This document shows, piece by piece, positions 1 to 3,000 of a stretch of DNA of 64,000 bases; the first letter of the stretch is position 1, and each line of letters opens with the position of its first letter. The stretch is from Heteronotia binoei (taxonomy: Eukaryota). The stretch is from NCBI RefSeq assembly GCF_032191835.1, contig NC_083234.1, positions 48,918,001-48,982,000 on the forward strand. Direction: 5' to 3'. The position numbers are program-made.

Positions 1-3000
1 GGACTGGATGGGCCACTGGCCTGATCCAACAGGGCTTCTCTTATGTTGTTATGTGACGCAGAGTGTTGGACTGGATGGGCCACTGGCCTGATCCAACAGG
101 GCTTCTCTTATGTTGTTATGTGACGCAGAGTGTTGGACTGGATGGGCCACTGGCCTGATCCAACAGGGCTTCTCTTATGTTATTATGTGACGCAGAGTGT
201 TGGACTGGAGGGGCCACTGGCCTGATCCAACAGGGCTTCTCTTATGTGACAATACTGACTTTGGTGGACCCAAGCACTGATTCAGTGTAAGGGAGCTTTG
301 TGTTTGTGTCTTCTAGTGCAATTTTGTTCTCAGATCCTGTATTTACTTCATCAGTATATGGGATAAGGCACTTTCTCAACTGTGCTGCATAATGCAGCCT
401 ATTTATTTTGTCCTGTTGGCTCTGTTGGCTCTATCTGCGCCACCTTCATCACTTTCGGGGTGTGGATCCCCCAGTGGAGTGGTCTCCCGACTCCCTCCGC
501 CGGCTGTTTCTGAGAGCCCTGCGCCCCCTCTTTCATTTGATATGTGTCCCGTGCGGGTGCCACCCTCCCGCCGGGAGATGCCGCAAAATGAGCCCCCTTG
601 AGGCTTATGGCGGCAGGGCTCGGGGGAAGCGAGCTAGACTGCTGTTCTTTTGAGGGGTTATAGAGTGTTTCGAGCCCGTCCCTGTGGCATCGGTCCCATC
701 GTTGTGGGGCCCAGGGGGCCGGCGCAGCAGCACGCTGAAGCAGCCTGTCGGTCACTTCCAGGTTCCTGTCCTGCATCTTGACCGGTGTTATTAGTGACAG
801 GCTGCTTCGGCGTGCCGCTGCGCCGGCCCCCTGGGTCCCACAACGATGGGACCGATGCCACAGGGACGGGCTCGAAACACTCTATAACCCCTCAAAAGAA
901 CAGCAGTCTAGCTCGCTTCCCCCGAGCCCTGCCGCCATAAGCCTCAAGGGGGCTCATTTTGCGGCATCTCCCGGCGGGAGGGTGGCACCCGCACGGGACA
1001 CATATCAAATGAAAGAGGGGGCGCAGGGCTATCAGAAACAGTCAGCGGAGGGAGTCGGGAGACCACCCCACTGGGGGATCCACACCCCGAAAGTGATGAA
1101 GGTGGCGCAGATAGAGCCAACAGAGCCAACAGGACAAAATAAATAGGCTGCATTATGCAGCACAGTTGAGAAAGTGCCTTATCCCATATACTGATGAAGT
1201 ATATACAGGATTTGAGAGCAAAATTGTTTCCGGCGGTGATATTTGGGGGATTTTTGGGGACGTCACAGGAAGTGCTGTGAAGTCACTTCCTGTTTCCGGC
1301 AGGTGACGCGGGGGAAATGATGTCACAGGAAGTGATGCCACTTCCTGTTTCCGGTGGTGGCATGACATCACCGGAAGTGACGTCACCGGAAGTGACGTCA
1401 CTTCCTGTTTCCGGTGGCGCGCGCGCGCAACCCCCCCCCCCCCCCCCCCGTGTCCCTGGCTGGCCTTCAGACATTATGGTCACCCTACTCCATTCTAGAC
1501 AATGCTAGAGTTCAGTCCTCTATGGGAGCTACAGAACCTGATCTGAGCAATTACCCAACGGTGAGAAAAATACATCCCATCTATGTTCAGAGCTATGCTT
1601 TTAATTGCAACTTGCTTCCTCCTCTCTTCAGTAGCTTAGTTGCCAGTGTTCCCTCTAAGCTGAGTTAGTTTGAGCTAGCTCACAGTTTTTTTAGCTTAGA
1701 GGGAGTATTAACTTGCCAGGTCAAACTTTTAAATCCTCAGGATTTTTGCTCTCATGTTTCAGAAACTGCTGTGGACAGGTGGAACATTTTTCTAGGATGT
1801 TCTGCCCTGCACAACTCATGGATGGTGCTAATTGTGATGTTAGCTGCAGTGAATTTGGACTGCGCAGATCTTGTGCAGAATGCTTTGGGGTGCCAGCCTC
1901 TGATATACAAGATTATTTAATGTGGGTTAACCCTACAATGATCCCCCTGTTTGCAATCAGGAAGGCCAGAGAATGATGAAAAGCTGTTTTCTCCCTACTA
2001 AATGAACATAGGTTTTTAATGGACGTATAAAATGTAGAAGTGGGTCTTTGGAATCTTCTGAGATTATTCTAATACAGGGGTGCACAAACTGTGGCTTGGG
2101 AGCCACATGTGGCTTTTTTGCACATATTGTGTGGTTTCCAAAGCCCTCACTGGCCCATCAGCCAGCTTGGAGAAGGCATTTATCACTTTAAATCACTTCT
2201 CCAAGCCAAGTCAGCCAGCAGCTCAGAGAATACATTTAAAGTTAAAGTTGCTTTCTTTCCATCTCTCCCTCCCCCTCCTTTCCCCCATCTATCTGCCTTC
2301 CTTCCTGCTTTCAAACATCTGACGTTTATTCTTTGTGGCTCTTACGTTAAGCAGATTGGCCACCCCTGTTCTAATAGTTCAGAAAAGAAACTAACACCAC
2401 AACAAAGAGTATGTGGGCACAGAAGGCTAATGTTAAGTGGCCAGTGTTCTTTTTTGAAGTTTGTGTCCAACATTCATCAGCAAACTATGGTGAATGGTCA
2501 ACACAGCCCCAGTAGAGGGCAGTGGATGACTGATGTGGCCCACATTCATTTCCAGTCATTTGACTCATCCCATATTCAGAGTCTCTAGCTGGGGAGATAT
2601 TTCCAAGGGCTCCTGCCTTACAACTGAATTCAAACAGGAAATGCCAAAATATTTGAGATGTGCTTCTAGGGACTCTAACGTACCTGCATTAGGAGATGAA
2701 TTTCTATGGGTGATATTCAGAGCCAAATTGTACTTTGGGAATCTATGGCAGGATGCCTCAATATGTAATGTAGTGGAGAAAAGAACAAAGAAGGGACCTG
2801 ATGTGGATTGTCACATTGTGCTGAGAGTCAAATGGAATACACAACAAATACACACATAAATAAGTGCAGAAATATTCCTGCATGGTATTGAGAAGAAAGT
2901 AACACAAGGATGGCATTTGTGGCAGTGTCTCCCTGCAGCGCTTGTAGTTCCATCCTTCAGGGCAACCTGTTGCTATTGTCCTAGTGGTCTGACCCACTGT

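What the first reader, a model, noticed from the sequence alone, without database searches (positions are those of the whole stretch)
319..1226. 908-bp near-perfect palindrome inside an ADD2 intron
431-bp arms with few mismatches surround a 46-bp spacer; the sequence is GC/CpG-rich and shows no TSD (seen). Long palindromes with short spacers are generally unstable and form cruciforms (established), so this one is probably young or amplified as a family. In ADD2 pre-mRNA it would fold into a ~430-bp dsRNA, a potential ADAR/Dicer substrate and splicing modulator (inference). The right arm runs directly into a transposon-like end at 1487 while the left arm stops at 319, suggesting a foldback element that lost ~260 bp of its left end.
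Basis: partly seen in the sequence, partly recalled or inferred. Interest (0 to 1): 0.65.

Follow-up and report, generated by a model that had tools for sequence, protein, structure and literature searches.

The report
Retroelement repeat with folded-back duplication
The 908-base palindrome is real and lies in an intron of a gecko's beta-adducin gene, but it is most likely a lone retrovirus-like terminal repeat in which part of the repeat was copied backwards, not a broken foldback transposon.

Summary
Arms 319-749 and 796-1226 are 431 nt each, with 10 substitutions, no indels and a 46-nt spacer.

The host is a gecko, not human. The window encodes Heteronotia binoei beta-adducin residues 1-206 exactly, on the minus strand. 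The palindrome lies in the intron after the last of these exons.

The palindrome is not a unit on its own. It is the left 908 bp of a 1176-bp CpG-rich insertion, 317-1492. This insertion starts with TG, ends with CA, and is flanked by a 6-bp direct repeat, TTCTAG (311-316 and 1493-1498). Chance gives this in 0.4-0.9% of decoys under a tight left boundary and 8.8% under a loose one.

Read on the minus strand, the insertion has the order of a long terminal repeat (LTR): a G run, three ETS/CRE enhancer-like units, TATAA, AATAAA, then CA. The right arm interrupts the enhancer array, and the spacer carries a further diverged unit.

My best reading, at confidence 0.4, is a solo LTR. In this reading the minus-strand DNA folded back during reverse transcription, copied its own 5' part to within 2 nt of its end, and then returned to the RNA template.

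No other copy could be examined, because no host genome or repeat library was available. Interest is moderate to low.

The parts
311..316 (.). Left copy of the putative 6-bp target-site duplication, TTCTAG
   Evidence: the only TG..CA pair with flanking 6-mers is 317/1492. Null from decoys: 173 of 20000 and 84 of 20000 with a tight left boundary, 1755 of 20000 with a loose one.
317..1492 (-). The whole 1176-bp insertion, read as a solo LTR on the minus strand (5' TG at 1492-1491, 3' CA at 318-317)
   Evidence: TG..CA termini plus the TSD. CpG o/e is 0.68 for 319-1450, against 0.10-0.15 in the flanks.
1227..1492 (-). Proposed 5' part of U3. It holds a C19 run (1431-1449; G19 on the minus strand), (GC)6 at 1417-1428, three 55-60-bp enhancer-like units each with GGAAGT and TGACGTCA-like motifs and a short hairpin, and a fourth unit cut off at 1227
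   Evidence: (family D2). Unit cores lie at 1397-1414, 1337-1354 and 1282-1299 on the minus strand.
796..1226 (-). Right arm (arm 1 in LTR orientation): proposed secondary inverted copy of 319-749, inserted into the enhancer array. A TATATA lies at 1200-1205
   Evidence: The junction at 1226/1227 cuts a unit after CCGGAAA, with 2 nt shared between the unit and the arm.
750..795 (-). 46-nt spacer. It contains a diverged enhancer-unit core (751-768, 3 mismatches) and a small 5-bp inverted repeat of its own (750-754 with 779-783)
   Evidence: (4 matches in the window, 0.04 expected), (the fold of the centre).
319..749 (-). Left arm (arm 2 in LTR orientation): proposed original 3' part of the LTR. 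TATAA lies at 662-658, AATAAA at 407-402, and 85 nt run from the AATAAA (its six bases excluded) to the LTR end at 317 (83 nt within the arm, then the terminal CA)
1493..1498 (.). Right copy of the putative target-site duplication, TTCTAG
1..312 (.). Older host flank: a 67-bp minisatellite (1-247) and the tail of a SINE-like dispersed repeat ending near 305-312. It fixes the left limit of the insertion
   Evidence: CpG o/e is 0.15.
3044..3148 (-). Nearest upstream beta-adducin exon (residues about 173-206 of H. binoei isoform X2). The insertion lies about 1.55 kb downstream, in the same orientation as the gene

Best explanation
The palindrome is the larger part of a 1176-bp solo long terminal repeat (317-1492, minus strand) of an LTR retroelement, probably an endogenous retrovirus. 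It sits in sense orientation in an intron of gecko beta-adducin.

Ancestral LTR (inferred). It was about 745 bp long: U3 with a G run and an array of ETS/CRE enhancer units, then TATAA, R, AATAAA, a short U5, and CA.

Proposed mechanism (inferred).
1. Minus-strand DNA corresponds to the window's plus strand and starts at 317. During the reverse transcription that produced this copy, it had been made through 795.
2. Its 3' end left the RNA template and used its own RNase H-exposed 5' part (749 back to 319) as template. This produced 796-1226.
3. Synthesis ran off 2 nt before the strand's own 5' end. It then returned to the RNA template inside the enhancer array, at a 2-nt match.
4. Both LTRs of the provirus would have inherited the rearrangement. 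Integration made the 6-bp duplication, and later LTR-LTR recombination left the solo LTR.

Present state. The element looks like a decaying relic. The arms have drifted apart by 2.3%, with CpG sites hit most often.

Consequences today (inferred).
- A 431-bp duplex forms in every ADD2 pre-mRNA.
- The LTR's single sense-strand AAUAAA is buried in that duplex.
- The DNA segment can extrude a cruciform.

Shown: the palindrome, the boundaries, the motif order, the interrupted repeat array, and the intron location. Inferred: the LTR identity, the timing of the duplication, and the mechanism.
For: 1. Termini and duplication. TG..CA plus a 6-bp direct repeat is the only such pair near the palindrome. 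With the left boundary confined to 313-319, it occurs in 173 of 20000 decoy right flanks of 574 nt and in 84 of 20000 of 300 nt.

2. Motif order. On the minus strand the order is G19, (GC)6, three enhancer-like units, TATAA, 255 nt, AATAAA, 85 nt, CA. This matches the LTR features listed in PMC3601003 (passages read). The plus-strand reading leaves no TATA or AATAAA after the enhancers.

3. Interrupted enhancer array. The right arm breaks into the array: a fourth unit matches through CCGGAAA(CA) and then becomes the arm. The unit core recurs in the spacer at 751-768 with 3 mismatches. That makes 4 matches in 64 kb against 0.04 expected. With the right arm removed, the result is an ordinary LTR.

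4. Outer end at the insertion boundary. The outer end of the template arm lies 2 nt from the insertion's end. That limit is fixed independently to within 6 nt by the end of the older SINE-like repeat. Run-off at a free 5' end predicts this; a chromosomal template switch does not.

5. Precedent for the chemistry. Self-priming of retroviral minus-strand DNA on its own RNase H-exposed 5' part is an established in vitro reaction (PMC6088434, section 5.1, passages read). Integrated HIV-1 proviruses with internal inversions were seen in 2 of 78 (PMC9278108, passages read). RT template switching that builds complex LTR elements is described in PMC1950507 (abstract only).

6. Neutral decay of the arms. 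The differences are 8 transitions and 2 transversions, with 3 of 10 at CpG and 0 indels. G:U-compatible changes number 5 on the plus-strand RNA and 3 on the minus-strand RNA, so pairing shows no sign of selection.
Against: - Only one copy could be examined. No second LTR, PBS, PPT or gag-pol is present, and the window holds no other copy.
- Beyond TG/CA, the terminal short inverted repeats do not fit the consensus TGTTRNR...YNYAACA quoted in PMC3601003.
- With a loose left boundary (300-320), the TG..CA plus 6-mer pattern arises in 1755 of 20000 decoys, 8.8%.
- The right boundary is not independently fixed. 1451-1492 has no CpG. A 5-mer, GTGTC, also flanks 311-1449. The G19 run could instead be a polypurine tract, with the LTR starting at TGCGCG.
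- There is no useful microhomology at the first switch (795/796), and 12 nt of the spacer are left unexplained.
- Self-primed products are described as dead ends and were not detected in endogenous reactions (PMC6088434). A rescued product would therefore be rare.
- The two protein searches with the longest arm ORF found no relative, so nothing shows that a family exists.
Confidence: 0.4

Rival explanations
1. The unit is a solo LTR, but the long hairpin is a normal feature of the whole LTR family. It would be a structured R region, kept because it serves the element, for example in polyadenylation control or RNA stability.
For: On the minus strand a TATATA (1205-1200) lies just inside the outer end of the first arm, and the AATAAA (407-402) lies near the outer end of the second arm. 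A transcript could therefore begin and end at the foot of the hairpin. Large R-region stem-loops are known in some retroviruses (recalled, not checked here).
Against: The arm cuts an enhancer unit in mid-sequence, and the array resumes in the spacer. The arm copies the terminal attachment region to within 2 nt of the LTR end, which a functional RNA hairpin has no reason to do. Arm differences show no bias towards G:U pairs on the sense RNA: 3 on the sense strand and 5 on the antisense strand. Long perfect inverted repeats are poorly tolerated by reverse transcription (recalled).
Confidence: 0.15
2. The unit is a solo LTR or another insertion that was ordinary at integration. The inverted copy was added later by a host replication or repair error: a fold-back template switch between strands at a stalled fork.
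For: Inverted duplications with short spacers and 0-3-nt microhomology junctions are a known product of replication template switching (papers seen only in the search listings). The 2-nt junction match fits this reading equally well.
Against: It does not explain why the copied segment ends 2 nt from the end of the insertion rather than anywhere else. It also does not explain why host flank was not copied.
Confidence: 0.15
3. This is the first reader's view, or a variant of it: a foldback-type or long-TIR non-autonomous DNA transposon, either damaged or inserted beside an unrelated CpG-rich element.
For: The 431-bp arms with a 46-nt centre look like a foldback element. The outer end of the palindrome coincides with the boundary of the young DNA.
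Against: No direct repeat of any length touches the palindrome: the flanks are ...CTAGTG on the left and TTTCCG... on the right. The 266 bp on the right is equally CpG-rich and shares its repeat unit with the spacer, so the two are one element. There is no second copy in 64 kb. The arms carry a promoter-to-poly(A) motif order rather than transposase-binding subterminal repeats.
Confidence: 0.12
4. It is a terminal hairpin of a linear DNA virus, for example parvovirus-like, captured together with its adjacent promoter.
For: A terminal palindrome followed by ETS and CRE/ATF motifs recalls parvoviral ends. That resemblance is recalled from memory only.
Against: No NS1/Rep or capsid domain was found in any ORF of 60 aa or more in 1-20639 (135 ORFs). 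The right flank is host-like in CpG. The arms are longer than any parvoviral hairpin I recall. The TG..CA termini and 6-bp duplication would have to be chance.
Confidence: 0.04
5. It is an assembly artefact, such as a chimeric read that joins both strands.
For: Palindromic artefacts do occur in long-read assemblies (recalled).
Against: The arms differ by 10 substitutions with a transition and CpG bias and by no indels. The spacer is asymmetric, and both outer junctions are unique sequence within a contiguous gene. Read errors would mostly be indels (recalled).
Confidence: 0.04

Closest known systems
Solo LTRs of endogenous retroviruses and LTR retrotransposons
   Same: TG..CA termini, a 6-bp target duplication, enhancer repeats followed by TATA and then AATAAA and a short U5, and no internal genes (features as listed in PMC3601003).
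   Different: It carries a 431-bp inverted copy of its own 3' part inside U3. The terminal inverted repeats are weak beyond TG/CA. No sister copy or parent provirus was seen.
Self-primed ('snap-back') products of retroviral minus-strand strong-stop DNA (HIV-1 TAR-dependent self-priming; PMC6088434 section 5.1)
   Same: Nascent minus-strand DNA folds back and copies its own 5' part, giving a hairpin whose far end is the 5' end of minus-strand DNA.
   Different: In this case the fold-back would have occurred about 477 nt into synthesis, after the first strand transfer. It would have been followed by a return to the RNA template, completion and integration. The published products are in vitro dead ends.
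Integrated proviruses with internal inversions or 'deletion with insertion' errors of reverse transcription
   Same: Rearranged but integrated copies with normal ends. HIV-1 proviruses with inversions were 2 of 78 in PMC9278108.
   Different: Those are somatic, recent, and mostly internal to the genome. This one is germ-line, lies inside the LTR, and is millions of years old on a rough clock.
Foldback transposons and long-TIR MITEs
   Same: A long near-perfect inverted repeat with a short centre.
   Different: No target duplication abuts the palindrome, and there is an asymmetric 266-bp extension that shares repeats with the centre.
Intronic inverted repeats that form double-stranded RNA (for example inverted SINE pairs edited by ADAR)
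   Same: An intramolecular duplex within a pre-mRNA, here 431 bp at -952 kcal/mol.
   Different: It is a single element folded on itself with 98% pairing, far longer and more perfect than typical SINE pairs. Editing was not tested.

Membership tests
LTR (solo) of an LTR retroelement | Termini 5'-TG...CA-3' | tested here: met
   317-318 is TG and 1491-1492 is CA on the plus strand, and the same holds on the minus strand.
LTR (solo) of an LTR retroelement | Target-site duplication of 4-6 bp directly outside the termini | tested here: met
   TTCTAG lies at 311-316 and 1493-1498. Decoy rates are 0.4-0.9% with a tight left boundary and 8.8% with a loose one.
LTR (solo) of an LTR retroelement | U3-R-U5 order: enhancer/promoter, TATA, AATAAA, short U5 | tested here: met
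   On the minus strand the enhancer-like units lie at 1414-1282, TATAA at 662-658 and AATAAA at 407-402, with 85 nt to the end. These are motif matches only; no transcript data exist.
LTR (solo) of an LTR retroelement | Short inverted repeats about 7 bp long (consensus TGTTRNR...YNYAACA, PMC3601003) | tested here: not met
   The 5' end reads TGGAGTA and the 3' end reads AATTGCA. Only TG/CA and two further positions agree.
LTR (solo) of an LTR retroelement | Related copies, including proviruses with two LTRs, PBS, PPT and gag-pol | not testable with these tools
   No host genome, Dfam or Repbase was available. There is no other copy in the window. ORF searches found nothing.
Snap-back (self-primed) reverse-transcription product | The inverted copy ends at the 5' end of minus-strand DNA (the U5/PBS border) | tested here: met
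   The copy stops at template position 319, which is 2 nt from the LTR end at 317.
Snap-back (self-primed) reverse-transcription product | Microhomology at the two template switches | tested here: inconclusive
   There are 2 shared nt at 1226/1227. At 795/796 I found none by reading. A 5-bp pair (750-754 with 779-783) lies 12 nt short of the junction.
Foldback / long-TIR DNA transposon | A target-site duplication abutting the inverted repeats | tested here: not met
   The flanks of 319 and 1226 share no direct repeat.
Penelope-like element with inverted pseudo-LTRs | A hammerhead ribozyme in the repeat, with RT/GIY-YIG coding sequence nearby | tested here: not met
   Rfam gave no hit at gathering score across the window. 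No ribozyme appeared at E up to 1 in 1-2500. Among the 135 ORFs of 1-20639, the only family above its Pfam cutoff is Aldolase_II.
DIRS-like element (inverted terminal repeats) | No target duplication; similarity to DIRS termini or an internal complementary region | tested here: not met
   A TSD is present. There is no similarity to the DIRS-like copy at 29920-35666 in the same window.
Endogenous parvovirus-type terminal hairpin | Adjacent NS1/Rep or capsid coding remnants | tested here: not met
   No such Pfam hit appeared in 135 ORFs of 60 aa or more from 1-20639.

The most novel reading that the evidence does not exclude
The locus is a germ-line fossil of a reverse-transcription accident that is otherwise known only from test-tube reactions. 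Minus-strand DNA primed on itself, ran off its own 5' end, was rescued by a second template switch and still integrated.

The resulting 431-bp duplex then buried the LTR's only sense-strand AAUAAA. That may be why a sense-oriented LTR could persist inside a conserved, brain-expressed gene. It would leave ADD2 pre-mRNA with one of the longest near-perfect intramolecular duplexes described in a vertebrate intron, and a strong ADAR substrate.
Probability: 0.2. Interest if true: 0.6.

Novelty: new variant of a known kind. Interest (0 to 1): 0.35.

Why it matters
- If the reading holds, errors of reverse transcription that biochemists call dead ends can reach the germ line, and they can be recognised from a single locus by their geometry. 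The geometry is an inverted copy that ends at the U5 terminus.
- The same signature gives a simple search rule for other genomes.
- For the host, the locus places a 431-bp perfect duplex and a masked poly(A) signal inside ADD2 transcripts. RNA-seq can test this for A-to-I editing, premature 3' ends and innate-immune sensing of double-stranded RNA.
- If instead the hairpin is common to a whole LTR family, it is an ordinary repeat.

Tried and rejected
- **Pfam on whole translated frames** failed because of stop codons. I replaced it with 395 stop-to-stop ORFs of 60 aa or more, chosen from 875 ORFs of 40 aa or more. ORFs of 40-59 aa were not scanned.
- **ORFs inside 317-1492.** None hit a Pfam family.
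- **Rfam.** There was nothing at gathering score in 64 kb. At E up to 1 in 1-2500 there were two weak hits: mir-1343 at 684-861 (27 bits against a 51-bit cutoff) and pRNA at 1240-1302 (21 against 34). I take both as chance matches to hairpins.
- **The search for homologous proteins with ORF 402-881(-).** 1105 word-sharing candidates were found and none scored E of 0.001 or better. Only lengths of 88-280 aa were searched.
- **The search of protein representatives with the same ORF.** There was one hit, P0123 (unnamed, 295 aa, E 1.6e-9). It is seven copies of a 20-residue repeat, all aligned to query residues 4-26. The score is summed over repeats, and I do not count it as homology.
- **blastn of 317-1492 against plasmids,** distant mode: no match. 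Phages and E. coli genomes were not searched.
- **Self-blastn of 250-1600 against the window:** no other copy.
- **One exon query in the wrong frame** was corrected.
- **Rejected after testing:** DIRS circle-junction, Penelope, Helitron, parvoviral hairpin and Polinton readings (see Membership tests).
- **Not used.** The third homologous-protein search, the listing of cluster members, structure tools, complex prediction and the prokaryote genome-contig scan do not bear on a non-coding vertebrate repeat.
- **Unavailable or closed.** There is no vertebrate genome collection and no Dfam or Repbase. Paper supplements were not opened.
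Full report
**Observation**

- Arms 319-749 and 796-1226 are 431 nt each and 46 nt apart.
- They differ at 10 positions, 8 transitions and 2 transversions, with no indel.
- Symmetry ends sharply at 319 and 1226.
- The minus-strand RNA of 300-1250 folds into one long stem at -952 kcal/mol. Twenty shuffles average -343 +/- 10, giving z = -62.
- The arms have GC 0.57 and CpG observed/expected 0.60-0.63. The next 224 bp (1227-1450) have CpG o/e 0.87. Most of the window lies at 0.07-0.23.
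- The window contains no N.
- The substitution-only, transition- and CpG-biased differences argue against an assembly artefact.

**Host and gene**

I do not take this contig for human.
- A single exon (5765-5914, minus strand), searched on its own, is 100% identical to beta-adducin isoform X2 of the gecko Heteronotia binoei. It is 98% identical to Paroedura picta and Gekko japonicus, and the best-scoring named hits I read in the list are beta-adducin/ADD2 or unnamed 'hypothetical protein' records from vertebrates; one jgi record (P0039) is named ribulose-5-phosphate 4-epimerase/fuculose-1-phosphate aldolase.
- Local tblastn of that named reference against the window places residues 1-206 on the minus strand without a mismatch inside exons. 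The exons lie at about 10735-10598, 7811-7731, 5914-5765, 3792-3646 and 3148-3044.
- The P. picta protein adds two upstream exons, at 14552-14370 and 12323-12183.
- Residues beyond 206 are not encoded in the window. The palindrome therefore lies in the intron that follows the exon ending at 3044, and 'ADD2 intron' is correct.

**Boundaries**

- To the left, 1-247 is a 67-bp minisatellite. It lies inside a SINE-like dispersed repeat whose tail ends near 305-312, judged from three other copies in the window that diverge from each other right after that point. The young DNA therefore begins between 313 and 319.
- No direct repeat abuts the palindrome itself.
- A scan for TG...CA termini with flanking direct repeats gives one 6-mer solution. 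The element is 317-1492, flanked by TTCTAG at 311-316 and 1493-1498.
- I replaced the right flank by random pieces of the same window as decoys. With the left boundary confined to 313-319, this pattern arose in 173 of 20000 decoys of 574 nt and in 84 of 20000 of 300 nt. With a looser left boundary (300-320) it arose in 1755 of 20000. The duplication is therefore likely real but not certain.
- The right boundary has no independent support. 1451-1492 has no CpG, and a 5-mer (GTGTC) also flanks 311-1449.

**Anatomy on the minus strand**

Read from 1492 down to 317, the 1176 bp run as follows:
1. TGGAGTAGGG...
2. G19.
3. (GC)6.
4. Three 55-60-bp units. Each has CCGGAAACAGGAAGTGAC, a TGACGTCA-like motif and a 9-bp hairpin.
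5. A fourth unit that stops after CCGGAAA.
6. The first arm (1226 to 796).
7. The 46-nt spacer.
8. The second arm (749 to 319), which contains TATAA (662-658), then AATAAA (407-402) 255 nt later, then 85 nt to the end of the LTR.
9. The terminal CA.

Two further points follow from this layout.
- The unit core occurs four times in 64 kb against 0.04 expected. The fourth occurrence, with 3 mismatches, is in the spacer. The enhancer-like array therefore continues across the first arm.
- With that arm deleted, what remains is a 745-bp sequence with the order enhancers, TATA, AATAAA, short tail, CA. This is the layout of retroviral and Metaviridae LTRs as summarised in PMC3601003 (passages read).
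- The plus-strand reading puts the enhancers after the AATAAA and leaves about 70 nt without signals, so I prefer the minus strand. That is also the strand of ADD2.

**Mechanism**

On this reading, the minus-strand DNA of the element is the window's plus strand, starting at 317.
- The observed order is 317-795, then the reverse complement of 749-319, then 1227-1492. This is what results if nascent minus-strand DNA left its RNA template after 795 and copied its own 5' part, which RNase H had already exposed.
- Synthesis then ran off 2 nt before its own 5' end. It resumed on the RNA in the enhancer array, where unit and arm share 2 nt.
- Both LTRs of the provirus would inherit the structure. Integration and later LTR-LTR recombination would give the solo LTR with its target duplication.
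- Self-priming of minus-strand DNA is well documented in vitro for HIV-1. There it is called a dead end and is suppressed by nucleocapsid (PMC6088434, section 5.1, passages read).
- Integrated HIV-1 proviruses with inversions were 2 of 78 in one survey (PMC9278108, passages read).
- Reverse-transcriptase template switching that builds complex LTR elements was proposed for Triticeae (PMC1950507, abstract only).
- The main argument for a pre-integration event is geometric. The copied segment ends within 2 nt of the end of the inserted DNA, as expected for run-off at a free end and not for a chromosomal template switch.

The model has three weak points:
- I find no microhomology at 795/796.
- A 5-bp pair inside the spacer (750-754 with 779-783) lies 12 nt from the junction and remains unexplained.
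- About 20-40 nt of the fourth unit must have been lost.

**Age and selection**

- Pairwise divergence of the arms is 10 of 431, a Kimura distance of about 0.024 by my arithmetic.
- Three of the ten differences are CpG to TpG/CpA changes.
- With recalled, unverified squamate rates of about 1-2 x 10^-9 per site per year, this means several million years. Gene conversion between the arms would make that a minimum.
- Transitions that keep a G:U pair number 5 on the plus-strand RNA and 3 on the minus-strand RNA, so nothing suggests selection for pairing.

**Consequences**

- Every ADD2 pre-mRNA should carry the duplex.
- The LTR's one sense-strand AAUAAA lies inside the stem, far from any mismatch. 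That could blunt premature polyadenylation from a sense-oriented LTR.
- This point, ADAR editing, small RNAs and cruciform-driven instability are all inferences. None was testable here.

**Alternatives**

- A family-wide functional hairpin, a post-integration fold-back duplication, and a foldback-type DNA transposon remain possible. They are weighed under Rival explanations.
- Penelope-like, DIRS-like, parvoviral and artefact readings failed the tests I could make.

**What stayed unchecked**

- **Other copies.** I could not see any, because no vertebrate genome collection and no Dfam or Repbase was available. I therefore cannot say whether the family is already catalogued.
- **Protein searches.** The two searches with the longest arm ORF found nothing usable.
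- **Literature.** My searches turned up no germ-line LTR with a snap-back duplication. They covered only the held open-access library and a few word combinations. Most hits were seen only as listings.
- **Supplements.** None were consulted.
- **Statements from recall.** Target-duplication lengths by retroviral genus, parvoviral hairpins, instability of long palindromes, long-read error profiles, substitution rates and the FIGLA-ADD2 synteny rest on recall.

**Verdict**

- The best reading is a solo LTR with a snap-back inverted duplication (confidence 0.4 for the full chain, about 0.6 for 'LTR').
- Novelty: a new variant of a known kind.
- Interest: 0.35.

Noticed in passing
window 29920-35666 (minus strand): A CpG-rich DIRS-like tyrosine-recombinase retroelement. 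Its Pfam hits are RVT_1 (6e-15), RT_RNaseH (2.5e-06), and weak Phage_int_SAM_4 and Dam. It has inverted terminal repeats at 29997-30132 and 35482-35617 (93%) and an internal complementary pair at 29920-29977 and 30203-30260. The reading frames are broken into several ORFs. It shows no similarity to the palindrome.
   Followed up: partly
window 1-247; single units at 42171-42234, 22706-22766, 50374-50445: A 67-bp unit of a SINE-like repeat is amplified to 3.7 near-identical tandem copies (98% matches) right next to the insertion. Elsewhere in the window the unit is single.
   Followed up: partly
window 62965-63387 (minus strand): An ORF with a helix-loop-helix domain (Pfam HLH, 1.4e-11) lies on the same strand as ADD2 and upstream of it. 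It may be the FIGLA neighbour known from mammals, but that synteny is recalled only and no search was run.
   Followed up: no
window 56001-58000: CpG observed/expected rises to 0.37 in otherwise CpG-poor DNA. This may be a promoter island of ADD2 or its neighbour.
   Followed up: no
window 834-872 and its mirror 673-711: Translated, this part of the arm (…PSLWHRSHRCGT…) resembles a 20-residue unit repeated seven times in one unnamed database protein, P0123. The score is summed over repeats and is probably chance. The 28-nt DNA core occurs only in the two arms within the window.
   Followed up: partly
window 1250-1414: Each enhancer-like unit is itself a small palindrome (CAGGAAGTG...CACTTCCTG). 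The best is a 24-nt pair at 1325-1348 and 1385-1408. The U3 region would therefore also form short hairpins in DNA or RNA.
   Followed up: no
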